64,000 bases of DNA from Flectonema sp. DT1601. Taxonomy: Eukaryota. The translations under genes were made by a program, and so were the position numbers. Location of the stretch: positions 992,001-1,056,000 of the forward strand of contig OZ025785.1 in NCBI GenBank assembly GCA_964019425.1, written 5' to 3'. Shown piece after piece: positions 34,775 to 64,000 of this stretch. Under the pieces are notes generated by a model, which ran no database searches, was not told where the DNA came from, and saw only the letters and a program-made list of their open reading frames with translations. The first letter of the stretch is position 1; each line of letters opens with the position of its first letter.

Positions 34775-34806
<32 letters not shown>

Positions 34807-34810
<4 letters not shown>

Positions 34811-35208: not shown

Positions 35209-36235
35209 CAACCCCACATAGCCCGCAGAAAAGGCGGGACGGCGGGCATCCTCCATCTCCTGCGCGGTCGTCCAGCGGCCTCCCGTCACCCCCTCTCTCA
35301 GCACTTCCAGACGAGCCACGTTCGCCTTCGCTAAGTCGGCCAGCAGCCGTTCCGCGTCCTCCAGGCTTTCGACAGCCGGTAATCTCGACATCAGCATGCC
35401 GAGCTCTCTTAGGCGCGCCTGCGCTTCGTGTGCCTGTGGTCGGGGGTTCGTTCCTGCCTTCGCTTCCAGCAGTTCTCTGCACGTCCGCCCCTCCGCCCCA
35501 CCAAGCATCTACGTCGATGGAGGACAATCCTCCCATCAACAGACCCATCTCCGGCTGTGCGTCGTCGCCTCCCCCGCCACCGGTAGCCGGGGGGCCTTCG
35601 TTTCCCGCAACCAGGCGACGTAACTGCGCCTCCAACTCTGCCTTCTCAGTCTCTTCTCGTACCCTCTGCCGTAAGTTAGCCAGCTCTCCTGAGTTTGCGT
35701 AGGAAGATGAGACGGGGTTGGGCACCAAAGTAGCCTTCGTAGGTGATAACTTTGCCATCCGTTTTTCCAGCTCGAGCTGGGCCTGCAGCGCAGACACTTC
35801 CGCGTGGTGTCGTGCCTCCAGCTTGGCCTTCGCCTCCGCTTCGTTCACCAGGATTCCGGCCTGGTTCCGTGCCGCGTCCACATCCCTCCCTTGGGCTTGC
35901 GTTACCGCCAAACCGGCTTGGGCCCGCACCGCGTCCACCTCCCTCCCTGCTTGTGCTTGCGTTACCGCTGCGCCGGCTTGGGCCCAAGCTGAGTCGCAAC
36001 CAGCTTGCGCATGCATGATCGCTTGAGCCGCCATGGACTGCGTGGCAGCTATTGCAGAGTTCCCCTCTGCTACCAGAGCCCTCCGGTCTCCGGCCGCTAC
36101 CACCTCCGTGGCCATCGCCTGCGTCTCCGCGGAGTGCGCTGCCATTGCAGCTTGGGCAACGAACGTTGGTGTTGCTTGTCCTCTTCCGGCCCCTGGAGTG
36201 AGGGCTACGACGGTGTTTGGGTCGACGCCAGACAT
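35209..36235 (-). pseudogene. GC-rich Ala/Gln-rich coiled-coil ORF, probable first (gag-like) ORF of the same YR retroelement; frameshift near 35510
   Basis: Same strand and similar GC content as the YR fragment, separated from it only by an AT-rich inserted block (34576-35208). Internal AQAG repeats. Function is inferred from position only. Confidence 0.45.
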
Positions 36236-39700: not shown

Positions 39701-40428
39701 GTCAAGACGCTAAACTGATTGTTTTTTTTCAAAATTAATAAAAAAGAATACAAAAAAAAATAAAAAAAAAAGAATAAACAATGTTATCATTGTTTTTTTT
39801 TATCGATCGTCTATGTCGATCACTTTCTATTTTCCGTCCTGGTCAAGACGCTAAACTGATTGTTTTTTTTTCAAAATTAATAAAAAAGAATATAAAAAAA
39901 AAATAAAAAAAAAAGAATAAACAATGTTATCATTGTTTTTTTTTATCGATCGTCTATGTCGATCACTTTCTATTTTCCGTCCTGGTCAAGACGCTAAACT
40001 GATTGTTTTTTTTCAAAATTAATAAAAAAGAATACAAAAAAAAATAAAAAAAAAAGAATAAACAATGTTATCATTGTTTTTTTTTATCGATCGTCTATGT
40101 CGATCACTTTCTATTTTCCGTCCTGGTCAAGACGCTAAACTGATTGTTTTTTTTCAAAATTAATAAAAAAGAATACAAAAAAAAATAAAAAAAAAAGAAT
40201 AAACAATGTTATCATTGTTTTTTTTTATCGATCGTCTATGTCGATCACTTTCTATTTTCCGTCCTGGTCAAGACGCTAAACTGATTGTTTTTTTTTCAAA
40301 ATTAATAAAAAAGAATATAAAAAAAAATAAAAAAAAAAGAATAAACAATGTTATCATTGTTTTTTTTTTTTATTGTTCGACTTTGTTGACTGGTCAAGAC
40401 GCTAAACTGATTGTTTTTTCTTTAAAAA
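36735..40428. repeat. AT-rich satellite array 1; monomers A (about 120 bp) and B (about 100 bp), often alternating
   Basis: A = GAATAAACAATGTTATCATTG(T)nATCGATCGACTATGTCGATYACTTTCTATTTTCCGTCCTGGTCAAGACGCTAAACTGATTG(T)nCAAAATTAAT(A)n... B has ATCGTTCGACTTTGTCGACTAAT and lacks the CCTGGTCAAGACGCTAAACTG segment. Confidence 0.97.
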
Positions 40429-40439
40429 GAAGATTTCAT

Positions 40440-43400: not shown

Positions 43401-45468
43401 ATGTTCTGTTCCAGACGAGGAACCTCCCCACGTGGCATTCAAGACCACTAATGCGCAGCATTAAAGAAGAACCTGCCACTGCAAGTTTTATAAAAGATGG
43501 TAAAGAAATCTTCCCTGTGGAAGAAGTCAAAATCCACAAAGTAACAAAACTGAAAACGATCGAAAAGCTCACCATTGAAAGATCGTGGCTTGAGAAATGT
43601 TTTATCTGGCAAACTTGTTACGCATCGGCTCTTTCTATTCTACTTATTGCCAATGGTTCTTCCTCCCCGGCCCCTTCTGTTTTGTTAGATGAGGATGAGC
43701 TCACTGGACTCTCCTTGTCATTCTCTTCTATTTCTTCCATCTCTTTCCAGACTCCCCCACCTGAACTCATGTCAACGGGATCGCAAACACTTCCTGCTGA
43801 TTTCGCTATAGTGATAAGAACTCAATCTGACATGGGTTCTCAAACCCCCTTGTACAAAAAAAAAGAAGGAAAATTAAGGCTGAAACTTTCCTTGAAATGC
43901 CAGATTTTAGAAAACGAATTAGAGCAAATGAAAGAACGAATTTTTTATGTTCTATTTTTATTTTACTTTAATGCGATGTCAGCCTCCCTCGAGAAAGACA
44001 AGCAGTTACTAAATGGATTACCTGTTGAGATCAAAGCTACCAACCAGGATCCATCCTCACTTCCTCCTGCGCCCCCTGTTTTAATTATTGAAAAAGATAG
44101 AAAAGAATATGAACTTCTGGAAGGAGTAATTCAACGGTTAACAGCAGAACGCGATGAATCGAAGACTTCTCTTTCTGCACTAGTTCGACAATATGACTTA
44201 GTGGAAGATTACAGGAAACGTGAGCTCGCAAATCTGACTCAGAGAGCAGACCTATCGGAAATGGCGCTCTTTAATTACCATCAAAGGTTTGTTCTTCTGT
44301 CGAACGAATTGGAGACCAAATGTAATGAGGAAAGAGAAAGTAAAATAAGACTTTTCTATACTCAACAGGAGGTCGAGAGTTTGCGTGCCGCGCGTCCCCG
44401 TATGACCCACTTTAGTCAACAAGTTTCCCCCCGAACCCCCGTTCTGTATGAATCTGTTGCTATGATGAAGATAGCAAAGAACTACCTCTCGCTCTTTACA
44501 ACTACGAGTAGTCTTTTTACTCCTCTTATTAAACCCCTTATCCCTACCCTTAATTATATCACCCCTCTTTGTCCTCTAGCCTCAATTCCTCCGACAATGC
44601 CGCAGAGTGAAGCTCTCGACCGCACGCCGACCAAGATTTTACGACAAGAGAGTCACGTTATCTCCGTTAAAGAGAATACACCTATTGCGAGACAATGGTC
44701 CGAGGGTAGGATTGACTTACTCGAGAATTACTGTCGAGCAGTAGATGACTCTCTCGAAACAAACGAGAAAGCGGCAGAGCTCTCAGAACAACTTCTGGAT
44801 GCCCAACTTCGCCTCTCGGAGCTGAATCACCAACGGTGTACAACTCACGCAGAGCAGCTTGAGCAATCCATGATGTTAACGGGACTGGCGAGCGATTTAA
44901 ATGCTCAACTCGCCTTGGCACGGTCTCAAATTGCGGCCCTGAAGTTCCAATTAGCTTCATGGGCAGAAGGTTTGAGTCCGCCAGACACAGAAGAACATGA
45001 GGAAAATGAAACTCCGCCGAGAAAGTCTGAGCGTTCAACTCTGAAAAAACGAACCCCTCCATCAAGATATCGTTACAATCGAAGGAGATGTTCTGCTGAT
45101 GACGTTCACGGTGACTCCACCCCCTTGTAATTCTCTTTTTCCTTACTTTCACATCACTTTGTTTATTTAGTTTTTTAGCTTATTTATTATTTATTGTTCG
45201 TTTTTGTTTGTATTATTTTATCGATATGTTTATGTCCGTCAGATCATAACGTTAATCTGGTTAATTGTTAATTGTTAATTATAAATGGTCTAAACCCCAA
45301 TCCAAGTTCCCAAGGCTTGGCATAGATTTGAGTGACGCCTTACTGGCCTCCTCATCCTCTATGAGTGGTGAGGGGGCCAGCAATGGTTTTTTTTTTTTTT
45401 TTTCTCTTATTTCTTTTTTTCTTTTTCTTTTACTCTAATATGAAATATTTTTGAACAAAATGTGATTA

Positions 45469-46699: not shown

Positions 46700-49248
46700 T
46701 TTCTTCAAATATAAAAAAAAATTAAAAAATATAAAAGATGAAACAATGTTATCATTGTTTTTTTTATCGATCGACTATGTCGATTACTTCCAGTTTTCCG
46801 TCCTGGTCAAGACGCTAAACTGATTGTTTTTTTTTTTTTTTTTAAAAAATTAATAAAAAGAATATAAAAAAAAAAAAAAAAAAAGAATAAACAATGTTAT
46901 CATTGTTTTTTTTTTATCGTTCGACTTTGTCGACTAATTTCTATTTTCCGTTTCTTTTCTTTAAATAATAAATAAAAAGAATTTAAAATAAAAAAAAAGA
47001 ATAAACAATGTTATCATTGTTTTTTTATCGATCGACTATGTCGATTACTTTCTATTTTCCGTCCTGGTCAAGACGCTAAACTGATTGTTTTTTTTTTCAA
47101 AATTAATAAAAAAGAATATAAAAAAAAAAAAAAAAAAAAAAGAATAAACAATGTTATCATTGTTTTTTTTTATTGTTCGACTTTGTTGACTAATTTCTAT
47201 TTTCCGTTTTTTTTCTTTAAAAAATAAATAAAAAGAATTTAAAATAAATAAAAAAGAATAAACAATGTTATCATTGTTTTTTTATCGATCGACTATGTCG
47301 ATCACTTTCTATTTTCCGTCCTGGTCAAGACGCTAAACTGATTGTTTTTTTTTCAAAATTAATAAAAAAGAATAAAAAAAAAAAAAAAAAAAAAGAATAA
47401 ACAATGTTATCATTGTTTTTTTTATCGTTCGACTTTGTTGACTAATTTCTATTTTCCGTTTTTTTTCTTTAAAAAATAAATAAAAAGAATTTAAAATAAA
47501 AAAAAAGAATAAACAATGTTATCATTGTTTTTTTATCGATCGACTATGTCGATCACTTTCTATTTTCCGTCCTGGTCAAGACGCTAAACTGATTGTTTTT
47601 TTTTCAAAATTAATAAAAAAGAATATAAAAAAAAAAAAAAAAAAAGAATAAACAATGTTATCATTGTTTTTTTTTTATCGTTCGACTTTGTCGACTAATT
47701 TCTATTTTCCGTTTCTTTTCTTTAAAGAATAAATAAAAAGAATTTAAAATAAAAAAAAAAATAAACAATGTTATCATTGTTTTTTTATCGATCGACTATG
47801 TCGATCACTTTCTATTTTCCGTCCTGGTCAAGACGCTAAACTGATTGTTTTTTTTTCTCAAAATTAATAAAAAAGAATATAAAAAAATACAAAAAAAAGA
47901 ATAAACAATGTTATCATTGTTTTTTTTATCGTTCGACTTTGTCGACTAATTTCTATTTTCCGTTTTTTTTTTCTTTAAAAAATAAATAAAAAGAATTTAA
48001 AATAAAAAAAAAAAAAAAGAATAAACAATGTTATCATTGTTTTTTTATCGATCGACTATGTCGATCACTTTCTATTTTCCGTCCTGGTCAAGACGCTAAA
48101 CTGATTGTTTTTTTTTCAAAATTAATAAAAAAGAATATAAAAAAAAAAAAAAAAAAAGGAAAAACAATGTTATCATTGTTTTTTTTATCGTTCGACTTTG
48201 TCGACTAATTTCTATTTTCCGTTTCTTTTCTTTAAAGAATAAATAAAAAGAATTTAAAATAAAAAAAAAGAATAAACAATGTTATCATTGTTTTTTTTTA
48301 TCGATCGACTATGTCGATCACTTTCTATTTTCCGTCCTGGTCAAGACGCTAAACTGATTGTTTTTTTTTTCAAAATTAATAAAAAAGAATATAAAAAAAT
48401 ACAAAAAAAAGAATAAACAATGTTATCATTGTTTTTTTTATCGTTCGACTTTGTCGACTAATTTCTATTTTCCGTTTTTTTTTTCTTTAAAAAATAAATA
48501 AAAAGAATTTAAAATAAAAAAAAAGAATAAACAATGTTATCATTGTTTTTTTATCGATCGACTATGTCGATCACTTTCTATTTTCCGTCCTGGTCAAGAC
48601 GCTAAACTGATTGTTTTTTTTTCAAAATTAATAAAAAAGAATATTAAAAAAAATACAAAAAAAAAAAGAATAAACAATGTTATCATTGTTTTTTTTTTAT
48701 CGTTCGACTTTGTCGACTAATTTCTATTTTCCGTTTTTTTTCTTTAAAAAATGAATAAAAAGAATTTAAAATAAAAAAAAAGAATAAACAATGTTATCAT
48801 TGTTTTTTTTTATCGATCGACTATGTCGATTACTTTCTATTTTCCGTCCTGGTCAAGACGCTAAACTGATTGTTTTTTTTTTCAAAATAAAAAAAAAATA
48901 TTAAAAAAAAAAAAATAAAAAAAAAGAATAAACAATGTTATCATTGTTTTTTTTTTATCGTTCGACTTTGTTGACTAATTTCTATTTTCCGTTTTTTTTC
49001 TTTAAAAAATAAATAAAAAGAATTTAAAAAAAAAAAAAAAAAAAAGAATAAACAATGTTATCATTGTTTTTTTTATCGATCGACTATGTCGATTACTTTC
49101 TATTTTCCGTCCTGGTCAAGACGCTAAACTGATTGTTTTTTTTTCAAAATTAATAAAAAAGAATATAAAAAAATACAAAAAAAAGAATAAACAATGTTAT
49201 CATTGTTTTTTTTATCGATCGACTATGTCGATTACTTTCTATTTTCCG
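46700..49248. repeat. Satellite array 2 (regular A-B dimers)
   Basis: Same monomers and orientation as array 1, with nearly strict A/B alternation. Confidence 0.97.
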
Positions 49249-50409
49249 TGCAAGGGAACAGTCCAAAGCATAAGTCCGAACAGCCCTAAGGCCAGTGAAC
49301 GCACTGATTGTTAGGTATTGTATTCCAGGGAAAGTTTGGTTTGTATACTTTATTTTTATTTTATTTTATTTAATTTGTTAAAAGAAAACAGGTAACTTTA
49401 CATGAGCATCGGCTCGAACGGCTCTGGCGAAGCGAGTGAACGAGTCTGATTGCTGAGTATTGTATTCTGTTTTCTTGTTCTTTTTTTAATTTATTTCAAA
49501 CAGGGCAACAGGGGGAAAGTTTGGTTTGTATCCCCTGGGTGTTTAGCGTCACCTGTTGAGGTGTAATGTATTCTGTTTACTTCTATCCCTTTTTTTTTTT
49601 TTTTTTTTTTTTTTATTTCAAACAGGACAGCAGGGGGAAAGTTTGTTTCGTACCCCCCGGGTGCTTAGCGTCACCCTCCATGCGATGCTTGCGCAGGGAG
49701 AGCCAAGGGTCGAGAACCCTGGAGATTACCTTTGTTTCTTTTTGTGACTGGATTGCAGTGGCGCAACCCATCACCCCACCTGTTGGTATCTTTTTATTTT
49801 TTTTATTTAAAGAAAAAAGCAGGCTAAGTCGCCTGAGCTGGCATCGCCAGAATATTTAACTTCACATGGCAATGTCAGCTCGTGAAGGGATCCAGTTGGA
49901 TCAAAGGTTTTCTCCCCCCCACTCTATTTATCGTCATTGGTGCGCACCTTCGAACAGGAAGGCCAACACTGACGGAATTTTTTACTTCTCTTCCCAGGGT
50001 TGAACCTTGGGAAAAAAACAAACAATAAACACAGTGTAGACAAACACCCGCCGGACATCTGCAGAGCAGCGATCGATGTCGATGTCTTCGTTGTCGAACT
50101 TCCTGGCGTTTATGTTTTTGTTTTTAACAACAACACAACACCAACTAACAGGTTTGTCTCATTGCCCGTTCTTTCTTGTTTCCCTTTGCCGCCGGAAGAA
50201 CGAAGGTCGACGGAGGTCCGAAGCATTGCTTGCGATGATGTTCCGGTATGTGTTGCGTCTCTGTTGACGCTAAACTGATTGTTTTTTTTTCAAAATTAAT
50301 AAAAAAGAATATAAAAAAATACAAAAAAAAGAATAAACAATGTTATCATTGTTTTTTTTTATCGTTCGACTTTTTCATGTTTGATTATTTCCTCTTCATT
50401 TTTTTTTTC

Positions 50410-50440
<31 letters not shown>

Positions 50441-50632
50441 CCTCTGCCTCTCTCTTAATTCTGTTCGTTTCTTTGAAACGAAAATTCATTTGAATATTAT
50501 TCCTTGGTCAGCAACCATCATTGTCGCCCTTTGGGCCTGTTAAAAAAAATAAAAATAAAAAGAAAGTTTACATCGGGAATAGGGCAGGAGCCAAAAGCTC
50601 CCAGTCCGTTACTTCCCACTTTATCGAAATTC

Positions 50633-53600
50633 TTAGAAACTAGGAAACTAGGTTAACACTTAGTTAAAATTAAGACCGGTTAGTCAGTTTAAGGTCTTGT
50701 CTAGGACCAACATTCTTGTTTAACTTCAGTTATATTCATTTTACTTTTTATTGTTTCCCATCTGTTTTTATTTTCTATTAGTTCTGGTCAGAAACCCCTG
50801 GGCAGCAAGAAGGAAAACAGTTTAGTACTTCTGGGTGTTTGGCATCACCCCCCATAGTGAGCAAGTACAACAGGTAGCATTGGTAGTCTGTTGATCCTGA
50901 GTGATCCCAGCTACAGTTTTGTTTTTCTTTCTTTTTTTTAGAAGAAGATCAGGACATCCAAGCACTGCTGGATAGTTGCTGAATGCAGGGCCTGCCTGTG
51001 GCATTATAATAACAGGCTAAGTCATTTGTAGTTCATAGTTTACCTTTGATTTTATAACTTCACACAGGGTACTATGAACGATGAGAGATCCAGTGGGATC
51101 ACTCAGGGTCTAGTAGAGACCACCAATGTTGTGCGTTGATAGGCAAGGTGACCAACCTTGACATTCTTTCTTTTCTCTCCTGTTGTGACAAACACAAAAT
51201 ACACACACAGCTTACAGTGTGTTCTTTGTGTATGTTTTCTTCAGGTGTGAGTAGTTTTTTTGTTCTTGCTCTTCAGGGAGGGCCTTAGCCAAAAGCTAAC
51301 AGTCCAAATCTCACCTGGAAATTCAACTCATTAAAAGGTTAAAAAAAAAAAAAAAAAAAAAAAAAGATTAATCAATGTTATCATTGTTTTTTAATCGATC
51401 GACTATGTCGATCACTTTCAATTTTCCGTCCTGGTCAGGACGCTAAACTGATTGTTTTTTCTTTAAAAATAAATAAAAAGAATAAAAAAAAAAAAAAAAA
51501 AGGAATAAACAATGTTATCATTGTTTTTATTTTATCGATCGACTATGTCGATTACTTTCTATTTTCCGTCCTGGTCAAGACGCTAAACTGATTGTTTTTT
51601 CTTTAAAAAATAATAAGAAGGATTTAAAAAAAAAAAAAAAAAAAAAAAAAGAATAAACAATGTTATCATTGTTTTTTTATCGATCGACTATGTCGATCAC
51701 TTTCTATTTTTCGTCCTGGTCAGGACGCTAAACTGATTGTTTTTTCTTTAAAAATAATAAAGAATTTCGATAAGAAGGATTTAAAAAAAAAAAAAAAAAA
51801 AAAGAATAAACAATGTTATCATTGTTTTTTTTTATCGATCGACTATGTCGATCACTTTCTATTTTCCGTCCTGGTCAAGACGCTAAACTGATTGTTTTTT
51901 TTCAAAATTAATAAAAAAGAATACAAAAAAAAATAAAAAAAAAAGAATAAACAATGTTATCATTGTTTTTTTTTATCGATCGTCTATGTCGATCACTTTC
52001 TATTTTCCGTCCTGGTCAAGACGCTAAACTGATTGTTTTTTTTCAAAATTAATAAAAAAGAATACAAAAAAAAATAAAAAAAAAAGAATAAACAATGTTA
52101 TCATTGTTTTTTTTTATCGATCGTCTATGTCGATCACTTTCTATTTTCCGTCCTGGTCAAGACGCTAAACTGATTGTTTTTTTTTCAAAATTAATAAAAA
52201 AGAATATAAAAAAAAATAAAAAAAAAAGAATAAACAATGTTATCATTGTTTTTTTTTTTTATTGTTCGACTTTGTTGACTGGTCAAGACGCTAAACTGAT
52301 TGTTTTTTCTTTAAAAAGAAGATTTCATATTAGAAACTAGGAAACTAGGTTAACACTTAGTTAAAATTAAGACCGGTTAGTCAGTTTAAGGTCTTGTCTA
52401 GGACCAACATTCTTGTTTAACTTCAGTTATATTCATTTTACTTTTTATTGTTTCCCATCTGTTTTTATTTTCTATTAGTTCTGGTCAGAAACCCCTGGGC
52501 AGCAAGAAGGAAAACAGTTTAGTACTTCTGGGTGTTTGGCATCACCCCCCATAGTGAGCAAGTACAACAGGTAGCATTGGTAGTCTGTTGATCCTGAGTG
52601 ATCCCAGCTACAGTTTTGTTTTTCTTTCTTTTTTTTAGAAGAAGATCAGGACATCCAAGCACTGCTGGATAGTTGCTGAATGCAGGGCCTGCCTGTGGCA
52701 TTATAATAACAGGCTAAGTCATTTGTAGTTCATAGTTTACCTTTGATTTTATAACTTCACACAGGGTACTATGAACGATGAGAGATCCAGTGGGATCACT
52801 CAGGGTCTAGTAGAGACCACCAATGTTGTGCGTTGATAGGCAAGGTGACCAACCTTGACATTCTTTCTTTTCTCTCCTGTTGTGACAAACACAAAATACA
52901 CACACAGCTTACAGTGTGTTCTTTGTGTATGTTTTCTTCAGGTGTGAGTAGTTTTTTTGTTCTTGCTCTTCAGGGAGGGCCTTAGCCAAAAGCTAACAGT
53001 CCAAATCTCACCTGGAAATTCAACTCAGTCCTTGTCAGTTTTGGCATCAAACTTGTAATGGTTTAATCATTACAGGTTATTTACTGAAATATTTGTTCTA
53101 AAAGTTGCTAAGTATTTCTCACTTAGAAATTTTTTATTTTTTTATTTTCAGCTTAATTAGCTACAAATTGTTTCTACTAAGTGTTTCTCGCTTAGTTTTT
53201 TTTTTTTGCTTTTCAGCTCCTTAAAAGCTGCTAAGTGTTTCTGCTAAGTGTTTCTCACTTAGAATTTTATTTTTATGTTCGTTTTCTATCCCTTCTCCTA
53301 TCCCTTTTGTTCAAAATAAGCGGGAGGAAATTCTCTCATTCACGCTAAGATGCACTCTGAACTTTGATTTTTTGATCTGAGTGTGAGGGAATGACCTGTT
53401 AGTGCATTGGGCATAGGCTGGGCTGCAGTTTAGATGTCTTAGGTGTTAATAGGGGGTTCCTCTTAGCATTTTTCTTTGTTCCCACCTTATGATTTTCTTG
53501 AAGAAAAAAAATAGAAGTCATAATGGTGCTTCCCTCTGGAAGGGTTGTAAGCCATGGTGTCCAACTAAATTAAAGGACAAGTCTGGGATAATCCCTGCCA

Positions 53601-54552
53601 GAGGGGCGAGTATTCTACCATGGTTGAAATACTCTGGCAACTGATCTTCAATTTTATGTTGTTTGTTAGCTGCTGGTGTATCTCGATCATGTGTTGATAC
53701 TTGCATTTTTTTTTATTTGTAATCTTTTACTACAATAACTCTTGCAATTATCTTTTCTTTTTTATTCTCTATCTGTTCTGGTCTGTTTCTTCATTTTTTT
53801 TACATTAATAATTACATTTTGTTCAAAAAGAAAAAAAAAGAAAAAGATTTCATATTAGAAACTAGGAAACTAGGTTAACACTTAGTTTAAATTAAGACCG
53901 GTTAGTCAGTTTAAGGTCTTGTCTAGGACCAACATTCTTGTTTAACTTCAGTTATATTCATTTTACTTTTTATTGTTTCCCATCTGTTTTTATTTTCTAT
54001 TAGTTCTGGTCAGAAACCCCTGGGCAGCAAGAAGGAAAACAGTTTAGTACTTCTGGGTGTTTGGCATCACCCCCCATAGTGAGCAAGTACAACAGGTAGC
54101 ATTGGTAGTCTGTTGATCCTGAGTGATCCCAGCTACAGTTTTGTTTTTCTTTCTTTTTTTTAGAAGAAGATCAGGACATCCAAGCACTGCTGGATAGTTG
54201 CTGAATGCAGGGCCTGCCTGTGGCATTATAATAACAGGCTAAGTCATTTGTAGTTCATAGTTTACCTTTGATTTTATAACTTCACACAGGGTACTATGAA
54301 CGATGAGAGATCCAGTGGGATCACTCAGGGTCTAGTAGAGACCACCAATGTTGTGCGTTGATAGGCAAGGTGACCAACCTTGACATTCTTTCTTTTCTCT
54401 CCTGTTGTGACAAACACAAAATACACACACAGCTTACAGTGTGTTCTTTGTGTATGTTTTCTTCAGGTGTGAGTAGTTTTTTTGTTCTTGCTCTTCAGGG
54501 AGGGCCTTAGCCAAAAGCTAACAGTCCAAATCTCACCTGGAAATTCAACTCA
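50633..54552. repeat. Block X (about 700 bp): near-identical direct copies at 50633-51329, 52329-53027 and 53854-54552; partial copy at about 36392-36733
   Basis: The identical short ORF MPQAGPAF... is reported four times in the ORF track and the nucleotide sequences match by eye. Copies 2 and 3 are 1525 bp apart. Confidence 0.93.
53794..53934 (-). mobile_element. About 140-nt A-tailed retro-insertion sharing its 3' end with the HERO-like element
   Basis: Minus strand ends TCTAATATGAAATC...TTTTTGAACAAAATGTAATTATTAATGT(A)8, matching 45434-45499. Absent from the homologous site at about 36385-36395. Confidence 0.65.
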
Positions 54553-54842
54553 TTAAAAGGTTAAAAAAAAAAAAAAAAAAAAAAAAAGATTAATCAATGT
54601 TATCATTGTTTTTTAATCGATCGACTATGTCGATCACTTTCAATTTTCCGTCCTGGTCAGGACGCTAAACTGATTGTTTTTTCTTTAAAAATAAATGAAA
54701 AGAATAAAAAAAAAAAAAAAAAAAAAAAAGAATAAACAATGTTATCATTTTTTTTTTATCGATCGACTATGTCGATTACTTTCTATTTTCCGTCTTGGTC
54801 AAGACGCTAAACTGATTGTTTTTTCTTTAAAATAATTAAAAG

Positions 54843-54875
<33 letters not shown>

Positions 54876-54988
54876 ATAAACAATGTTATCATTGTTTTTT
54901 TTCTATCGATCGACTATGTCGATTAATTTCTATTTTCCGTCCTGATCGAGACGCTAAACTGATTGTTTCCTTTTTTTAAATAATAAAT

Positions 54989-55020
<32 letters not shown>

Positions 55021-55444
55021 ATCTCCCTGCTATCCTCATATCCCCACAATAATATTATACCTTTTCATTTTCTCTTTCCTTTTCTGGTCTTTTTTTTTCT
55101 TTTTTTCCTTTTTCATACAACGTTTTTTTATTTATATTTATATTTTTTTTTTTTTTTTTTTTTTTCATGTTTGATTATTTCCTCTTCATATTTTTTTTTT
55201 TCTATTCTTTCTTTTTTTTTTTTTTTTTTCTCTGCCTCTCTCTCAATTCTGTTCGTTTCTTTGAAACGAAAATTCATTTGAATATTATTCCTTGGTCAGC
55301 AACCATCATTGTCGCCCTTTGGGCCTGTTAAAAAAAAAAAAAAAAAATAAAAAGAAAGTTTACATCGGGAATAGGGCAGGAGCCAAAAGCTCCCAGTCCG
55401 TTACTTCCCACTTTATCGAAATTTTTTAAAAAATAAATAAAAAG

Positions 55445-55484
<40 letters not shown>

Positions 55485-55731
55485 AATGTTATCATTTTTT
55501 TTTTATCGATCGACTATGTCGATCACTTTCAATTTTCCGTCCTGGTCAGGACGCTAAACTGATTGTTTTTTCTTTAAAAATAAATGAAAAGAATAAAAAA
55601 AAAAAAAAAAAAAAAAAAGAATAAACAATGTTATCATTTTTTTTTTATCGATCGACTATGTCGATTACTTTCTATTTTCCGTCTTGGTCAAGACGCTAAA
55701 CTGATTGTTTTTTCTTTAAAATAATTAAAAG

Positions 55732-55764
<33 letters not shown>

Positions 55765-57950
55765 ATAAACAATGTTATCATTGTTTTTTTATCGTTCGAC
55801 TTTTCCGTTTTTTTCTCTTAAAAAATAAATAAAAAGAATTTAAAAAAAAAAAAAAAAAAAAAAGAATAAACAATGTTATCATTGTTTTTTTATCGATCGA
55901 CTTTGTCGACTAATTTCTATTTACCGTCCTGGTCAAGACGCTAAACTGATTGTTTTTTCTAAATAAATAAAAAGAATAAAAAAAAAAAAAAAAAAAAAAA
56001 AAGATTAAACAATGTTATCATTGTTTTTTTTTATCGATCGACTATGTCGATTACTTTCTATTTTCCGTTTTTTTTTCTTTTCCTGTCTGACTGACTGTTT
56101 TTTCTTTAAAAAATAAATAAAAAGAATAAAAAAAAAAAAACAAAAAAAAAAGAATAAACAATGTTATCATTGTTTTTTTATCGATCGACTATGTCGATTA
56201 CTTTCTATTTCTCTGCCTCTCTCTTAATTCTGTTCGTTTCTTTGAAACGAAAATTCATTTGAATATTATTCCTTGGTCAGCAACCATCATTGTCGCCCTT
56301 TGGGCCTGTTAAAAAAAAATAAAAAATAAAAAGAAAGTTTACATCGGGAATAGGGCAGGAGCCAAAAGCTCCCAGTCCGTTACTTCCCACTTTATCGAAA
56401 TTCATCACTTTCTATTTCTCGTCCTGGTCAGGACGCTAAACTGATTGTTTTTTCTTTAAAAATAAATAAAAAGAATAAAAAAAAAAAAAAAAAAGGAATA
56501 AACAATGTTATCATTGTTTTTATTTTATCGATCGACTATGTCGATTACTTTCTATTTTCCGTCCTGGTCAAGACGCTAAACTGATTGTTTTTTCTTTAAA
56601 AAATAATAAGAAGGATTTAAAAAAAAAAAAAAAAAAAAAAAAAGAATAAACAATGTTATCATTGTTTTTTTATCGATCGACTATGTCGATCACTTTCTAT
56701 TTTTCGTCCTGGTCAGGACGCTAAACTGATTGTTTTTTCTTTAAAAATAATAAAAAGGATTTAAAAAAAAAAAAAAAAAAAAAGAATAAACAATGTTATC
56801 ATTGTTTTTTTTTATCGATCGACTATGTCGATCACTTTCTATTTTCCGTCCTGGTCAAGACGCTAAACTGATTGTTTTTTTTCAAAATTAATAAAAAAGA
56901 ATACAAAAAAAAATAAAAAAAAAAGAATAAACAATGTTATCATTGTTTTTTTTTATCGATCGTCTATGTCGATCACTTTCTATTTTCCGTCCTGGTCAAG
57001 ACGCTAAACTGATTGTTTTTTTTTCAAAATTAATAAAAAAGAATATAAAAAAAAAATAAAAAAAAAAGAATGAACAATGTTATCATTGTTTTTTTTTATC
57101 GATCGTCTATGTCGATCACTTTCTATTTTCCGTCCTGGTCAAGACGCTAAACTGATTGTTTTTTTCAAAATTAATAAAAAAGAATACAAAAAAAAATAAA
57201 AAAAAAAGAATAAACAATGTTATCATTGTTTTTTTTTATCGATCGTCTATGTCGATCACTTTCTATTTTCCGTCCTGGTCAAGACGCTAAACTGATTGTT
57301 TTTTTTTCAAAATTAATAAAAAAGAATATAAAAAAAAAATAAAAAAAAAAGAATAAACAATGTTATCATTGTTTTTTTTTATCGATCGTCTATGTCGATC
57401 ACTTTCTATTTTCCGTCCTGGTCAAGACGCTAAACTGATTGTTTTTTTTCAAAATTAATAAAAAAGAATACAAAAAAAAATAAAAAAAAAAGAATAAACA
57501 ATGTTATCATTGTTTTTTTTTATCGATCGTCTATGTCGATCACTTTCTATTTTCCGTCCTGGTCAAGACGCTAAACTGATTGTTTTTTTTTCAAAATTAA
57601 TAAAAAAGAATATAAAAAAAAAATAAAAAAAAAAAAATAAACAATGTTATCATTGTTTTTTTTTTTTATTGTTCGACTTTGTTGACTAATTTCTATTTTC
57701 CGTTTTTTTTTCTTTTTAAAAAGTAAATAAAAAGAATTTAAAAAAAAAAAAAAAAAAAAAGAATAAACAATGTTATCATTGTTTTTTTTTATCGATCGAC
57801 TATGTCGATTACTTTCTATTTTCCGTCCTGGTCAAGACGCTAAACTGATTGTTTTTTTTTCAAAATTAATAAAAAAGAATATAAAAAAAAACAAAAACAA
57901 AAAGAATAAACAATGTTATCATTGTTTTTTTTTTATCGTTCGACTTTGTC

Positions 57951-58150
57951 NNNNNNNNNNNNNNNNNNNNNNNNNNNNNNNNNNNNNNNNNNNNNNNNNN
58001 NNNNNNNNNNNNNNNNNNNNNNNNNNNNNNNNNNNNNNNNNNNNNNNNNNNNNNNNNNNNNNNNNNNNNNNNNNNNNNNNNNNNNNNNNNNNNNNNNNNN
58101 NNNNNNNNNNNNNNNNNNNNNNNNNNNNNNNNNNNNNNNNNNNNNNNNNN
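57951..58150. other. Assembly gap (200 N)
   Basis: Run of N; true size and adjacency of the flanks are unknown. Confidence 1.
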
Positions 58151-61100
58151 TTTCCCCGATTGCACTTGAAGTCTATGGAGGTTTAGGCCCACAAGCTGTG
58201 AGGACCCTGAGCCGACTGTCGCAGCTGCGAGCCATTGCCACAACAGTACCCCTACGGGAGGTTGCAGGCCTGTATGCCAGGAGGGTCTCAACCCAAGTGG
58301 TGGTCTGCACTGCAGAAGCCCTCAGGGCAAGAGGAGCATCGCTCATACACCAGGCAGCGTTATCCGCTAGTAAGCCGCACACGCCACACATGCCGCCTGC
58401 ACCGAGCACATCCGATGACGTGTCATTGTCCGCATCGACCCCACAACCTATGGATCCAACTCCAGACCCAACCACACCGGATGCCGGAGGGATCGGCCGG
58501 TCAGCGGAACCCGAGGGGGATACAGTTACCAGGCCGGCCACGAAGCCAGAGGAACCCGCAACGAGTCTAGTAACTCCACAACACAAAGCTGGAGTGCCGA
58601 GGGAGTTCGAATCGACACCAGTGCCGGCCCCGCAACCGACCACGACTGACGACGGAGGACCCGTTCCGATAGCTACATCGGTGTCCGTTCCAGCCGCTAC
58701 CCTGTCAACCGAAGGACGGAACGAGACCGCATCGTTTGATCCAACTACCGCTGCCCCGACACCTCCTGGCCCAATCATATCTACCGCCGGAGGTTTAGAG
58801 GTATCGGAGCCTGTGCTGAGTCCTTCGACTAGTCCGCAAGGGGTGTCCGCCGAACCCACTATGAGCCTCACAACTCCACTACACAAAGCCGGAGAGCCGA
58901 GAGAGCTCGAACCAGTGCCGGCGCAGGCCCCGTTACCGACCACGACTGACGATGGAGGATCCGACCCGACAGCCACACCAGTGTCCGCACCGATGGCACC
59001 CTTACCAGCTGGAGGGAGAAACGAGAAAACATCGACTGAACCAGTCACCGCTGCCCCGACCCCTCCTGGCCCAACCATATCCATCGCCGGAGGTTTAGGG
59101 ATATCGGAGCCTGTGCCGAGTCCGTCGACTAGTCCGCAAGGATTGCCCGCAGAACCCGCTACGAGTGTCGCAATTCCACTACACAAAAACGGAGAGCCGT
59201 GTGAGTACGAATCAACACCAGTGCCGACCCCGTTACCGTACACGACTGACGACGGAGGACCCGACCCGACAGCCACACCAGTGTCCGCTCCGACGGCTTC
59301 CTTACCAGCTGGAGGGAGAAACGAGAAAACATCGACTGAACCAGCCACCGCTGCCCCGACCCCTCCTGGCCCAACCATATCCATCGCCGGAGGTTTAGGG
59401 ATATCGGAGCCTTTGCCGAGTCCGTCGACTAGTCCGCAAAGATTGCCCGCAGAACCCGCTACGAGTGCCGCAATTCCACTACACAAAGACGGAGAGCCGT
59501 GTGAGTACGAATCAACACCAGTGCCGACCCCGTTACCGTACACGACTGACGACGGAGGACCCGATCCGACAGCCACACCAGTGTCCGCTCCAGCTGCCTC
59601 CTTGCCAGCCGTCGGACCGAACGAGTTCACGTTGCACGTTCCAGCCACCGCTGCCCCGACCCCTCCTGGCCCAACCACATCCATCGCCGGAGGTTTAGAG
59701 GTATCGGAGCCCGGGCTGAGACTGCCACTCAACAGACCTCTAGAAGCGCCGGTTGATCCGGCATCAGCTGTAGACGTAACTTCCTCGCCAGCCGCTAAAC
59801 GAACCGAGACGGATCAGACCGCTCCAGTCACCGCTGTCCCTACTCCTCCGGGCCCAACCAGATCCATTGCCGGAAGTTTAGAGTTACCGGAGCCGGAGCC
59901 GAGACCGTCTTTTCGCCCGCAAGGAGCGCCGGTTGAACCCACAATGGAAACAGGCAATCCTTCACTGCCAATAGGCGGACGGAATGTATTCATATTGATC
60001 GACCCAGCCGCTGCTGTCCCTATGCCCCCTGGCCCTTCCAAATCCACTGCCGGAGGTTTAGAGATATCGGAGACCGGGCTGAGGCCGCATGAATCGCCCA
60101 CTGATCCAATCGCTACGCACGGTGGAGAGATAACGCCGAACGAAGCCGCCCTGTCTGTTCCAGACTCTGCCGTCATGCACCTTCCTGGCCCAATAACAAC
60201 TTCTGACGGACGATGGCAGGAACCGGAGTCGGTCCCGGGTACGCCCTTGACACAGAGAGGGCCGTCACTCACTTCGAAACCCGAGAGTCCAGCAATAGAA
60301 CACCCTCCGACCTTCATACCCTTTGGAGTAGGCCTGGAGGGGATTCAGAATCTCGGGGATTCCTGCTACATGAACGCAGCGCTGCAGTGCCTATGCAAGG
60401 GCATGCCTCTTCCGGAATGCAACAAATTGCCGGAACACTCAGCAGACTGTGTCTTATGCACCCTGAGGGAGCTGAAGCGATCGGGGTCTGTTTTGGCAGC
60501 GAAGAAGATATGGGAATGGATGAAACCACGCTGCGGTCCGGGACAATCAGAAGCCGAACATGCACTGTCAGAGCTGCTCGAAGCAATCGTTGAGGCGGGA
60601 GCTCCACCAGTCGACTTCGTGTCCACGGTAACGCAAATCCGCACGTGTCAAGTCTGCGAAGACATACACACGGTACGGTATAGAACGCCCATCCTCAGAC
60701 TGGAACCAGACCAAAAGACAGCTTCTGCCCTTGACGAAACGACGACAAGCCCGACAGACTTCACCTGCCCGAGTTGTAAATCGTGCTCAGCGGAGATCGT
60801 TACATCGGTAGACGAGCCAGCCCGTTCGCTGTTCCTTGGGTTCAAAGAGGGACATTTCGGAGATACCAAACCCGATGAAGTCACCCTTCCAGAATCCTTC
60901 ATAGACGCATCGAGCCGCCTCTACACCCTGACTGGAATGATCCAACACGTCAGATTAAACGAGGTCTCGGGGCACTATGTGTCGTATACGACAAATGGAA
61001 GGGGGGGATGGCTGAAACAAGACGATTCTGCCGAGGGAATCTACACGTCGAAGGTCACACAAGTAAAGCCCTGCGTCGCCCTGTACCTGAGACGAGAGCA

Positions 61101-63321
61101 GCTACCCTCCTCCACCCAGGATCCAAGACGGATTTTAGCACCCTCCAACAGGAAGCCATCTTTCTTCTACGGAGTCGCCGAAGGCAGATCCCCGGGAGTC
61201 TATACCACGTGGGAGGAAACGAAGAGGGAGGTGCACAAATACAGAGGCGCCGTCCACCAAAGATTCGTCCTCCGCGAGTCGGCCCAGCGATTTGTCGAGA
61301 GGTACAACCCACCATCAGGGGATACCAAAGTCGCTCCACCGCCGGGCAGCAAATGGTACGCAGTAGTCAGGGGCCGAAAGTCCGGTCTGTACGACTGCTG
61401 GCGCGAAGCGAGCTCGATGGTAAACGAGTTCACCAGAAGCCGGTACAAGGCCTTCAACTCGCGATTGGAAGCCTCTCTATACTGGTGGGACCACATGGCA
61501 GGGGGACCTCAACAGGACTCGCCTCGCATGTGCCTATTCTTTGCCAGTCATAGGAACTTGAACACTGGGAGGACGGGGGCGGCCGCCTGCCTGTTGGACA
61601 CGCAACTGCACAAGTTGACGGCCAGCTGGGGTGCGACGCTCGACACTGCAGACCTCGGGCTAGCCTCCTACTATGCTGCCCTCAAGGGGATACAGAAGAT
61701 GAGTCAACAGGATAGAAATGCCACCTGGAGTTGCAGAGGAAATATGAACACGTGGAGTGCGACAACACGGACGGGACTGGCGGGGGCTGTGCCGGACACA
61801 TGGAGCTTCCTCAACACACCAAACGTCGCCAACAACTGTGCGCAGTTCAAGGCGGAAGAGGTGTCCTCTCGAGATTACTGCTCGCTGATGGACGTGTTGA
61901 GACGTACCTCAGAACTGGAAGGGGAGCTGGGATTACGGTTAACCAAGAAACCGAGATCCCCAGATTCCGATTCGCAGGGAGAGTCTGCCTCGGTCAAAAA
62001 ACCAAAGGCTGAGGCAGACCATCCACCGCCCGCCATAGCCGACCCCGTTAGAAGCCCAACGCCACCGGCCAGTCCGAGGAGCAAGAAGCAGTGGTCCCCT
62101 GGTTCAGATTCGCAAGACGAGCCTGTATCAGTGAAGAAGCCGAAGACGTCCGCACCTGAAGTGGCCCGAGAAGACTCAGTGACTTCAGAAGGCCCCCCAC
62201 TAGTAGATAACCAACGGAACCCGACGGTCACGACGGAGATAGAAAATGTAGCGCCGACCGCCTCACCTGTTGAAACTGCAGTTACAACCAATGTCGGCCA
62301 GAGTAAGCCGGAGCCAAAGGAAACCGACATCCCACCGCCGAATGCAAGTCAGGAATTGGAAGATGCCACGGCCAGCGCCACACCAGTCACTAGACCGACA
62401 GATTTGCCCACCGAAGGCAGTCCCCTGCCGTCAGCCAGTCTAAGGACGATAGTTGCAACCATAGACCCGCCGGAGAAAGGTGAACACGATGCCTCCGAAG
62501 ATACAGTAAACACCCTCAAGGAAGAAGTATATGATGCCCCTGGAGATCAGACAGACACCCTCACCGGGGAAGTACGCGATGCCTCCGAAGAACCAGCGGA
62601 TATTCTTACCGAAGTAGAACATGATGCCGCCGGAGAACTAGCAGACACCCTCGCCGAAGAAGTGCGCGATACCGCCGAACAACCAGCAGACATCCTTACC
62701 GAAATAGAACAGGATGCCTCCGGAGAACTAGCGGACGCCCTCGACAATGAAGTGTGTGACACCTCTGAAGAACCAGTAGACATCCTCACCAAGGAGGAAC
62801 GCGACTTGTCCAGCCCGTCATCGCAGTTACAAGCATACGACAAGGAGACCCACACTCCCCCTGTGGCCAGAACGCTAGACCTCGACAGCCATAACAGCTC
62901 TACAGAAGATCCGACACCGAAGACCAGAAGAGCAAGGAGCAGCCCACCCCGGACGGGGACAAGTAGCTCCGATGTCTCCACAAACGATACCGAAGATACC
63001 CGACCGACATGTGACCATGCACCGCCGTTGCAAAAGGGACCAAGGGTCAAATGCGACTTCTGCCATAGATTGTTGCAACGGAAATGGTTCAGGAGCAGAT
63101 GCACGAAGTGCCAGATAACGACCTGTCGAAGATGTTGGACCGCCGGAGTGGAGACCGCCTCCAGAGCCTTGGATCACCCAGACAGTACACCAAGACACAG
63201 GAGGACGAGGTCGTGCCCATCCTCGAACGAGAAGACAAAGAAGAAGATATCGCCATACAGTTCCGCGGACTCAGAGAAGACCAACCTGAGTCCGGGGAAG
63301 AGACTTAAAGACGACTGCTGA
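58151..63321 (+). CDS. C-terminal about 1720 aa of a probable RLE non-LTR retrotransposon polyprotein: RLE C-terminus, Pro/Thr repeats, USP (peptidase C19), 2x RNase H1 hybrid-binding domain, degenerate RNase H, acidic repeats, Cys finger
   Basis: xSPIALEVYGGLGPQAVRTLSRL...RRVS (RLE end); GIQNLGDSCYMNAALQCL and GHYVSY...WLKQDDS (USP); FYGVAEGRSPGVYTTWEE and WYAVVRGRKSGLYDCWRE (HBD); CDFC..CTKC..CRRC. No stop codons; the 5' part is lost in the gap. Confidence 0.85.
58540..59730 (+). repeat. Four 300-bp (100-aa) coding tandem repeats, followed by shorter diverged copies to about 60200
   Basis: Sequence lines at 58561, 58861, 59161 and 59461 align; repeated peptide PLHK.GEP.E.E...TTDDGG.DPTATPVS...AAPTPPGPT.S.AGGL. 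Confidence 0.95.
62482..62796 (+). repeat. Seven 45-bp (15-aa) acidic coding repeats
   Basis: EHDASEDTVNTLKEE / VYDAPGDQTDTLTGE / VRDASEEPADILTEV / EHDAAGELADTLAEE / VRDTAEQPADILTEI / EQDASGELADALDNE / VCDTSEEPVDILTKE. Confidence 0.9.
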
Positions 63322-63954
63322 GATCTGTGGGTGTACTCACACGTCCCCTCCCCCTCCTCCTCCCCCACCCCCCCCCTTTATACCCACCGGAATAGATAAT
63401 TTCTTTTAAAAGTGTCACTGTGAGACCTCAAAGAAAGCCGCACGTCCTCGGCAAAAAGAAGCCTGAGATGCTGACAAAAAGTCGATCTGTTAGTGAAACC
63501 TTGCCACTTAGCTTAGCTCTTCCAAAAACAACCAAGGCGGAACAAGATTGACTGCGTCGAAGGTGGAAACCGACAGCGTGCGAAGAAGAAAAAAGTAAAA
63601 GACTTAGGTAAAGCATACAACAGGTTATTAGGGAATAACCGCCGTCACACGGAAGAGTGATGAGTAAACCAGGGGCAATAATTACAACTTGGTCCACCGG
63701 GCTGGTGACAATGTTCCAACGTAGCATGCTAGGGCTAAGACAAGAGATGCGCCTGACGCGGGTGGAGTAGAGTCTTGTTATATTTTGGAGAGCAACGTTT
63801 TCGAACTACCCACAATATACCCGTCAGGAGGCAACTTGTACTTGGCTTACAATTTTAAAGACTACCGGTTTTCTCAGATAGAATTCCAGCAGACAAAGAA
63901 AAGTAAAAGAACTGTACTAGCATGTGGTTTCTTCCCGGCATCTTCGCTTCGGCG

Positions 63955-64000
<46 letters not shown>

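What the first reader, a model, noticed from the sequence alone, without database searches (positions are those of the whole stretch)
58151..64000. Probable non-LTR retrotransposon carrying a USP-family deubiquitinase downstream of its endonuclease
Seen: one stop-free frame starts at the gap with xSPIALEVYGGLGPQAVRTLSRL...RRVS...AEALRAR and runs about 1720 aa. It includes a complete USP core at about 60330-61090: Cys box QNLGDSCYMNAALQCL (Cys 60364), Zn ribbon CQVC/CPSC, His box GHYVSY (His 60973) and WLKQDD. The unit ends in UTR plus poly(A). Known: the P.A.E..G..G..A...L..L pattern closes the restriction-like endonuclease of CRE-type elements, and the RLE is normally the last domain. Ulp1-type proteases are known in NeSL elements, N-terminal to the RT. 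Inference: this element has acquired a catalytically intact C19 deubiquitinase C-terminal to the RLE, an architecture I do not recognise. It could protect the RNP from degradation, edit chromatin or repair ubiquitin marks at the target site, or process the polyprotein.
Basis: partly seen in the sequence, partly recalled or inferred. Interest (0 to 1): 0.9.

Follow-up and report, generated by a model that had tools for sequence, protein, structure and literature searches.

The report
Retrotransposon carrying two ubiquitin-type proteases
This is the tail of a multi-copy jumping gene whose one long protein carries, after its copying and DNA-cutting enzymes, a predicted ubiquitin-removing protease (related copies have a second one at the front) that likely shields or trims the element's own protein during insertion, a layout not found in the papers searched.

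Summary
Confirmed and extended. The frame 58153-63321 (1722 aa) is the 3' part of a young, multi-copy, CRE-like non-LTR retrotransposon, followed by a 633-nt UTR and poly(A). Near-identical database copies supply what the gap hides: P0016 has RT, restriction-like endonuclease (RLE) and USP in one frame. A sister family (RT 67% identical) is complete in 2840 aa: OTU protease, zinc fingers, RT, RLE, USP, RNase H modules. Both families keep the USP Cys-His-Asp triad at 33% identity but have lost other conserved USP motifs. By RT they form one clade (100/99) with Diplonema papillatum elements that also carry a post-RLE USP and with elements carrying OTU on both sides of RT-RLE. A P-x-x-[LF]-[AST]-G-G motif precedes the OTU in all five lineages that have one and occurs in 0 of 102 other relatives, hinting at self-cleavage. 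Activity, substrate, target site and donor are untested. New variant of a known kind.

The parts
57951..58150 (.). Assembly gap (200 N). The 5' part of the element (leader, OTU, zinc fingers, RT, most of the RLE) is missing here; its true length in this copy is unknown
   Evidence: missing parts seen in copies P0008, P0017, P0012, P0016, P0010
58153..63321 (+). Single open frame, 1722 aa plus stop: C-terminal part (just over half) of a polyprotein of roughly 3160 aa (sum of overlapping fragments)
58153..58338 (+). C-terminal end of the restriction-like endonuclease (RLE)
   Evidence: 62/62 identical to the RLE end of P0010 and P0016; full RLE motif set in those copies
58339..60330 (+). Pro/Thr/Ala-rich spacer with four 300-nt repeat units (58545-59744) and degenerate units; all repeat spacings are multiples of 3; eight xAGG motifs
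60331..61107 (+). USP (peptidase C19) domain: Asn733, Cys738 (60364), His941 (60973), Asp957 (61021); two CxxC pairs
   Evidence: Pfam UCH E 5.8e-10; PDB USP36/15/8 by sequence; Foldseek hits are USPs (low-confidence model)
61165..61293 (+). RNase H1 hybrid-binding domain 1 (Cauli_VI)
   Evidence: Pfam, residues 1005-1047; PDB 1qhk and 3bsu
61348..61488 (+). RNase H1 hybrid-binding domain 2 (Cauli_VI)
   Evidence: second Pfam stretch; model topology; 53% identical in the sister family
61525..61887 (+). RNase H-fold domain without the first catalytic Asp and the Glu (pseudo-RNase H)
   Evidence: AF2 from family-only alignment, pLDDT mostly 79-88; VIA-align Z 13.4, rmsd 3.7, 117 aligned to archaeal RNase H1 4e19; Foldseek E 3.7e-5; residue register from hhalign
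61936..62997 (+). Low-complexity acidic/Pro-rich tail with 45-nt repeats (62477-62825)
63052..63135 (+). C-terminal Cys8 zinc finger (CxxC-x13-CxxC-x4-CxxC); similar spacing in clade members P0211 and P0185
   Evidence: ZZ_ADA2 E 9e-4, below cut-off
63322..63954 (+). 3' UTR, 633 nt, no unusual folding (z 0.65)
63955..64000 (+). Poly(A) tail, 46 A, runs off the window; longest pure A run in the window (next longest 34)

Best explanation
This is the 3' part of a young, multi-copy CRE-like non-LTR retrotransposon whose single polyprotein reads OTU - zinc fingers - RT - RLE - spacer - USP - two hybrid-binding domains - dead RNase H fold - tail, and whose USP is likely an active Gly-Gly-specific protease that acts on the element's own particle during insertion. 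Shown: the domain order (sister family whole; this family by one RT-to-USP copy plus overlapping fragments), multi-copy status, the USP triad in both families, the RNase H fold without catalytic acids, and one RT clade in which every member with a complete C-terminus has a protease domain after the RLE. Inferred from general non-LTR biology: the RLE nicks the target and the RT copies the RNA there (target-primed reverse transcription). Inferred here: the hybrid-binding pair and pseudo-RNase H would hold the C-terminal module on the new RNA:DNA hybrid without cutting it. The tethered USP would then strip ubiquitin from the 3000-residue protein or from repair and chromatin proteins at the insertion site. 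The same chemistry may also cut the element's own Gly-Gly motifs. My odds: architecture 0.95, USP active 0.65, role at the element's own particle about 0.5.
For: P0016 has RVT_1 + RLE + UCH + Cauli_VI in one frame, 96% identical to the window. P0023 and P0031 have OTU + RVT_1 + UCH + Cauli_VI in one 2840/2836-aa frame. Fragments tile this family from OTU to the window at 92-100% identity. USP Asn/Cys/His/Asp, both His-box histidines, GHY and W are kept in both families although the domain is only 33% identical (RT 67%, RLE 61%). In a diverged subfamily (P0004) the USP start differs at 8/50 residues against 211/488 in the spacer. All six repeat spacings between and after the domains (300, 183, 180, 168, 135, 45 nt) keep the frame. 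RT clade support: SH 99 (110 rows), 100/99 (51 rows), 96 under a mixture model (32 rows). Diplonema P0187 has RT, RLE, then UCH (E 2.7e-7). Most relatives end at the RLE: 92 of 118 proteins with an RLE have a tail of 100 aa or less, and 0 of 80 metagenome loci have OTU, USP or RNase H. Ubiquitin/SUMO proteases recur in other transposons (PMC2836005 passages; PMC4640811 passages; PMC13405545 passages).
Against: The element USPs are strongly degenerate. They keep 28 (this family), 28 (sister) and 22 (Diplonema) of 49 columns conserved in 55 other USPs, whose median is 45 and minimum 29. The QxD..E and K-R-F motifs, which I recall as ubiquitin-contacting, are changed. The USP is the fastest-drifting enzyme domain between the families. 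The USP model is poor (pLDDT 43.5), so triad geometry is not shown. No single protein of this family spans OTU to USP. No DNA of other copies was available, so there is no dN/dS on the USP, no target site and no TSD. Nothing shows which substrate is used.
Confidence: 0.55

Rival explanations
1. The proteases are mainly polyprotein-processing enzymes. The OTU would cut the N-terminal leader at the conserved P-x-x-[LF]-[AST]-G-G, and the USP (or a C-terminal OTU in sister lineages) would cut at xAGG repeats in the spacer, freeing the RT-RLE core from the C-terminal module.
For: The motif lies just upstream of the first zinc finger or OTU in all 5 lineages with an N-terminal OTU, amid poorly alignable sequence, and occurs in 0 of 102 other relatives (31 with over 400 aa before the RT) and 0 of 21 long metagenome frames. 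AGG is enriched in the RLE-to-protease spacer: 8 vs 0.5 expected here, 7 vs 0.5 in P0004, 6 vs 2.2 in P0187, 5 vs 0.8 in P0196, and none in three post-protease tails. Loss of ubiquitin-contact motifs with the triad kept fits a change of substrate. Precedent: USP1 cuts itself at an internal diglycine (PMC4326527 passages).
Against: The motif was defined after seeing these five sequences, which share ancestry. Spacer AGGs sit in tandem repeats, so they are not independent, and one of the six aligned units has GS instead of GG. The sister family's 57-aa spacer and those of P0211 and P0185 have no AGG; P0186 is not significant (p 0.065).
Confidence: 0.25
2. The USP and RNase H modules are captured passengers in slow decay. 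The element moves by RT and RLE alone and the tail has no function.
For: USP and pseudo-RNase H are 25-33% identical between the families against 61-67% for RLE and RT. The RNase H active site is gone. Most relatives do without any tail.
Against: All catalytic USP residues survive two-thirds sequence turnover. The hybrid-binding domains are 47-53% identical. The 5-kb frame has no stop, and repeat expansions keep the frame. A protease after the RLE persists across a clade whose RTs are only 36-42% identical.
Confidence: 0.12
3. The USP acts in trans as a counter-defence or host-modulating enzyme, for example against ubiquitin-dependent silencing of the element, and not on its own insertion complex.
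For: Two different protease folds in one protein, and swapping between USP and OTU at the C-terminal slot within the clade, look like arms-race turnover. The nearest Atlas clusters are compact giant-virus USPs (0.95).
Against: The protease is fused to the RT protein and sits next to hybrid-binding domains, which favours action in cis. The viral USPs fetched are at most about 25% identical, and the USP tree is uninformative about a donor.
Confidence: 0.06
4. The fusion is an assembly or gene-calling artefact, or a domesticated single-copy host gene.
For: The window copy begins at a gap inside a patchwork of satellites and broken repeats.
Against: The same RLE-to-USP junction is in several near-identical copies on different contigs, in a sister family and in another named species. 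The unit ends in poly(A).
Confidence: 0.02

Closest known systems
CRE clade non-LTR retrotransposons (SLACS, CZAR, CRE1, CRE2)
   Same: Single ORF, N-terminal zinc fingers, RT, RLE, poly(A), internal repeats (PMC12278014 passages). The nearest named RT-RLE relatives are annotated 'Retrotransposable element SLACS 132 kDa protein'.
   Different: About 1700 aa follow the RLE, with USP, hybrid-binding domains, pseudo-RNase H and a zinc finger; there is an N-terminal OTU. Insertion into spliced-leader genes is not shown.
Diplonema papillatum SLACS-annotated proteins P0187, P0186, P0188, P0242
   Same: Same RT clade. N-terminal OTU (P0242) and RT-RLE-spacer-USP (P0187), with the Gly-Gly motifs.
   Different: No Cauli_VI or RNase H match in them. 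Their USP does not group with the USPs of the two families here, so one origin of the USP is not shown. The genome paper has no occurrence of 'ubiquitin' in its main text (PMC10161547 passages).
NeSL and Utopia-1_TSP (Ulp1 protease); oomycete Utopia (RNase H)
   Same: RLE-type elements with a ubiquitin-like-protein protease or an archaeal-type RNase H in the RT protein (PMC4640811 passages).
   Different: There the protease is Ulp1-type and N-terminal, and the RNase H is upstream of the RT with conserved catalytic positions. Here USP and a dead RNase H lie after the RLE.
Dualen/RandI and other ORF2-like proteins with Josephin or OTU domains
   Same: Deubiquitinase domains fused to a non-LTR RT protein (PMC13405545 passages).
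   Different: Josephin is N-terminal; no USP is mentioned in the passages seen.
Ginger1, Helitron and Mutator proteases; Trichomonas transposase XP_001314237 with peptidase C19
   Same: OTU, Ulp1 or C19 domains on a transposon protein, with a proposed role in repair signalling (PMC2836005 passages).
   Different: These are DNA transposons with one protease each.
Prp8 (recalled, not tested)
   Same: An RT-like and RLE-like core followed by an inactive RNase H fold and a deubiquitinase-type domain.
   Different: Prp8's domain is an inactive Jab1/MPN fold and the order differs. This is an analogy in accretion pattern only, not evidence of descent.

Membership tests
CRE-clade non-LTR retrotransposon | RT domain in the same ORF | tested here: met
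   RVT_1, QGDPLGP and YLDD in P0016 (96% identical to the window) and P0023; not visible in the window copy itself (gap)
CRE-clade non-LTR retrotransposon | RLE with CCHC finger, RHD, PD..D and E..K motifs after the RT | tested here: met
   the window holds its last 62 residues
CRE-clade non-LTR retrotransposon | Single ORF with N-terminal zinc fingers | tested here: met
   whole in sister family P0023/P0031; by overlapping fragments in this family
CRE-clade non-LTR retrotransposon | 3' poly(A) tail | tested here: met
   63955-64000; the genome has many A runs of 20-34
CRE-clade non-LTR retrotransposon | RT groups with curated CRE references | tested here: inconclusive
   Groups with automatically named SLACS proteins. 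No curated CRE1, CRE2, SLACS or CZAR sequence was in the trees.
CRE-clade non-LTR retrotransposon | Target-site duplication and specific target (spliced-leader genes in trypanosomatids) | not testable with these tools
   5' end in the gap, 3' flank outside the window, no genome held, no runs listed
USP / peptidase C19 | Cys box with oxyanion Asn, His box, catalytic Asp | tested here: met
   N733, C738, H941, D957 in the window and kept in the sister family; the Asp is assigned by recalled USP register
USP / peptidase C19 | Profile score above the curated cut-off | tested here: met
   Pfam UCH 39.6 bits vs 23.9
USP / peptidase C19 | Thumb-palm-fingers fold with aligned triad | tested here: inconclusive
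   model pLDDT 43.5; Foldseek top hits all USPs, E 2e-6, but rmsd about 14
USP / peptidase C19 | Conserved non-catalytic motifs (QxD..E, K-R-F); typical of the family, not strictly defining | tested here: not met
   QSE..H and KEG here; 28 of 49 conserved columns kept vs median 45
USP / peptidase C19 | Hydrolyses ubiquitin conjugates | not testable with these tools
   needs an assay
RNase H1 | RNase H fold plus hybrid-binding domain | tested here: met
   Z 13.4, rmsd 3.7, 117 aligned; Cauli_VI x2
RNase H1 | Catalytic D-E-D-D acids | tested here: not met
   first Asp and Glu positions align to non-acidic residues in the window domain; the sister family's first copy keeps only the Glu. Filed as pseudo-RNase H.
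NeSL/Utopia with Ulp1 protease | N-terminal Ulp1-type protease | tested here: not met
   Pfam finds OTU, not Ulp1, N-terminal in P0008 and P0023

The most novel reading that the evidence does not exclude
A previously undescribed lineage of RLE retrotransposons from several protist genomes makes a virus-like, self-processing polyprotein. One ubiquitin-type protease at each end of the RT-RLE core cuts at the element's own Gly-Gly sites and also deubiquitinates, while a dead RNase H with twin hybrid-binding domains clamps the reverse-transcription intermediate. The C-terminal slot is swapped between USP and OTU across the lineage.
Probability: 0.3. Interest if true: 0.87.

Novelty: new variant of a known kind. 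Interest (0 to 1): 0.72.

Why it matters
Proteases of ubiquitin-like proteins recur on many transposons, but their job has only been guessed at (PMC2836005). This lineage offers young, near-identical, apparently intact copies with two such proteases, candidate cleavage motifs that track the proteases across the clade, and a natural USP-versus-OTU swap. Processing, protection and repair-signalling models can therefore be told apart with point changes; Diplonema papillatum, which carries a member, is a named model species. It also shows that the RLE need not be the last domain, and that an RT-RLE protein can accrete a dead RNase H plus a deubiquitinase, the pattern recalled for Prp8.

Tried and rejected
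No genome is held for the window and no sequencing run was listed, so the gap, target site and expression stay open.

Earlier-findings look-ups by place, words and sequence returned nothing.

RT search of viral contigs found no relative. None of the 80 metagenome loci kept (best 80 of 495, from a scan of 15 of 64 parts) has OTU, USP or RNase H; 75 frames have an RLE and 2 have tails over 150 aa.

Donor of the USP: the Atlas points to giant-virus USPs, but 51 dereplicated viral and 4 cellular USP domains are at most about 25% identical and the element USPs are long branches. No donor and no single origin is claimed.

RNase H by sequence profile alone was not significant (hmmsearch E 0.8-0.9; hhalign probability 47.5; Atlas 0.86, lead only). 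Only the fold search settled it.

The USP fold model was too poor to check triad geometry. Whether the USP groove can take the spacer Gly-Gly peptide or ubiquitin was not modelled and stays open; no ubiquitin gene lay in the fetched loci.

Spliced-leader-like motif (recalled) in the window: 3 matches at 2 mismatches vs 1.8 expected, nothing real. Rfam finds no family at the gathering score in the satellite or UTR. UTR folding is ordinary. dN/dS among the four 300-nt spacer units is mixed (0.44-1.52) and not used.

P0217 and P0287 have OTU-like C-terminal stretches by eye only: Pfam and my first profile missed them. They lie outside the clade and are left as a lead.

Print searches: searches found nothing; some searches listed papers, none of which, as far as seen, describes a USP in a non-LTR element. 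Kojima's 2020 review is not held and Repbase could not be searched; I recall, unverified, that an OTU-bearing CRE element has been noted there. Paper supplements were not read and could bear on the novelty claim.

Full report
Observation. The frame 58153-63321 (+) is open for 1722 codons from the edge of a 200-N gap. Pfam finds a USP (UCH, residues 730-960, E 5.8e-10) and two RNase H1 hybrid-binding domains (Cauli_VI, E 6.8e-26). A 633-nt UTR and 46 A close the unit at the window's end. GC is 58% in the frame against 20-30% in the satellite before the gap.

Filling the gap with other copies. No genome or reads were available. The protein collection holds a cluster of 22 members; the 15 listed lie on contigs of 9 different lengths, and full-length matches are 96-99% identical to the window. 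P0016 carries RT (YLDD), the full RLE (CCHC, RHD, PAD, FDVT, E..K..KY), the spacer, the USP and both hybrid-binding domains in one frame. P0008 carries zinc fingers and an OTU protease (Pfam E 2.4e-12). P0008-P0017-P0012-P0016-P0010-window overlap at 92, 100, 93, 96 and 99%, which adds up to about 3160 aa. No single protein of this family spans the whole. Identity between the families is RT 67%, RLE 61%, OTU 51%, hybrid-binding 47 and 53%, USP 33%, RNase H-like 25-28%.

The domain after the hybrid-binding pair. It has no Pfam match, and profile tests were weak. A model built from family sequences only is confident there (pLDDT mostly 79-88). It matches RNase H1 structures best: Z 13.4, rmsd 3.7 over 117 residues to the Halobacterium enzyme 4e19, with RNase H domains filling the top 14 rows; Foldseek E 3.7e-5. 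The first catalytic Asp and the Glu are replaced. It is a pseudo-RNase H, and the sister family has two.

The USP. Both families keep the oxyanion Asn, Cys, His and Asp, but only 28 of 49 columns conserved in 55 viral and cellular USPs (median 45, minimum 29). The QxD..E and K-R-F motifs are changed. The fold model is poor (pLDDT 43.5), though its Foldseek hits are USPs. In the diverged subfamily P0004 the USP start differs at 8 of 50 residues and the spacer at 211 of 488. All repeat spacings in spacer and tail (300, 183, 180, 168, 135, 45 nt) are multiples of three. So the domain is kept in frame and catalytically plausible, but its ubiquitin-binding surface may have changed. No donor could be named.

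Distribution. Searching with RT and RLE gave 149 proteins of 913-2905 aa, 120 listed (only the 7988 best candidates were scored); the nearest named are SLACS-annotated proteins of Diplonema papillatum. Of 121 proteins scanned (118 of those hits plus P0016, P0023, P0004), 118 have an RLE and 92 of these end within 100 aa of it. Among the 118 hits, a USP follows the RLE in 3, all Diplonema (P0186 and P0188 partial; P0187 Pfam E 2.7e-7). An OTU-like domain follows it in P0192, P0194-P0201 (weak Pfam OTU in the 3 of these 8 scanned, E 0.0009-0.005), P0211 and, degenerate, P0185. Most of these also have an N-terminal OTU-like domain; my profiles included some of these sequences, so their self-scores are not evidence. 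All these RTs and the two families form one clade: SH 99 with 110 rows (2 short rows and 9 near-copies dropped), 100/99 with 51 rows, 96 with a mixture model on 32 rows. The USP-bearing subset has only 92/67 and is unresolved under the mixture model. None of 80 metagenome loci shows these domains.

Gly-Gly motifs. P-x-x-[LF]-[AST]-G-G sits just before the first zinc finger or OTU in all five lineages with an N-terminal OTU and in none of 102 other relatives. AGG is enriched in the spacer before the C-terminal protease in this family, P0004, P0187 and P0196, but absent from the short spacers of the sister family, P0211 and P0185. Ubiquitin-type proteases cut after Gly-Gly (established knowledge), and USP1 cuts itself at an internal diglycine (PMC4326527, passages). 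The motif was defined after the fact on related sequences, so it is a lead.

Mechanism. I commit to an autonomous element that inserts by target-primed reverse transcription (inferred from family knowledge). Its C-terminal module is held on the RNA:DNA intermediate by the hybrid-binding pair and pseudo-RNase H (inferred) and brings an active Gly-Gly protease (inferred from the triad) to deubiquitinate the element's protein or nearby repair and chromatin proteins. Self-processing is the main rival and may coexist. Decay and artefact are less likely for the reasons listed.

Known systems. Passages read: Ulp1 N-terminal in NeSL/Utopia and RNase H upstream of RT in oomycete Utopia (PMC4640811); OTU/Ulp1 in DNA transposons and one C19-transposase fusion in Trichomonas (PMC2836005); Josephin and OTU on ORF2-like proteins (PMC13405545); trypanosomatid CRE structure, with no occurrence of OTU, ubiquitin, protease or peptidase in the main text (PMC12278014); Diplonema genome paper naming SLACS RTs, with no occurrence of 'ubiquitin' (PMC10161547); PMC9940879 had nothing relevant. 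Nine novelty searches listed no paper that, as far as seen, describes a USP in a non-LTR element or a protease after the RLE. Subscription papers, supplements, Kojima's 2020 review and Repbase were not seen.

Context. The element follows arrays of a 141-143-bp AT-rich satellite and other repeats, but adjacency across the gap is not proven. Of 16 ATG-started ORFs of 110 aa or more in 1-33.5 kb, 14 are on the minus strand and several are long and uninterrupted. That is compatible with a euglenozoan-like host; this is inference.

Verdict. Real, multi-copy, and part of a wider clade. New variant of a known kind; interest 0.72.

Noticed in passing
window 40406-45130 (+): A second, 5'-truncated RLE-type non-LTR element of another clade (RVT_1 E 5e-26, zf-RVT, RHD/RPD motifs) in one 1574-aa frame. 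It also runs about 550 aa past its endonuclease; the tail has no Pfam family at cut-off. It starts directly after a satellite array, at a junction sequence that recurs near 52290 followed by different DNA.
   Followed up: partly
window 36735-40368, 46711-49249, 51346-52257, 54563-57950: Arrays of a 141-143-bp AT-rich satellite (with 253-286-bp higher-order units) holding short palindromes; no Rfam match at the gathering score. Possible centromeric or subtelomeric nest or target.
   Followed up: partly
window ~50630-51340, 52330-53030, 53860-54560 and ~34800-35210, 55020-55420, 56210-56400: Two dispersed non-coding repeats of several hundred bases recur in near-identical copies between the satellite arrays; possibly non-autonomous elements.
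   Followed up: no
window 31120-32869 (-): MULE/SWIM transposase-like ORF (weak Pfam matches) with an overlapping upstream frame.
   Followed up: no
window 5893-32869: 14 of 16 ATG ORFs of 110 aa or more are on the minus strand (acyltransferase, pectate-lyase-like pieces, CCCH, SAM-WW, BTB, DUF1308), as in directional gene clusters; tRNA genes at 1473 and 23486 on the plus strand.
   Followed up: partly
proteins P0194-P0201, P0211, P0185: Clade members with OTU-like domains on both sides of RT-RLE; P0211 and P0185 have a Cys-rich finger after it spaced like the window's terminal finger.
   Followed up: partly
proteins P0217, P0287: CRE-like proteins outside the clade with OTU-like C-terminal stretches seen by eye, suggesting an independent gain.
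   Followed up: partly
proteins P0008, P0023 (N-termini): Both families' called ORFs begin with a hydrophobic, signal-peptide-like stretch about 210-270 residues before the conserved Gly-Gly motif; it may be a leader or untranslated read-through.
   Followed up: no
proteins P0036, P0073: Unrelated proteins made of about 10 and 3 tandem USP domains.
   Followed up: no
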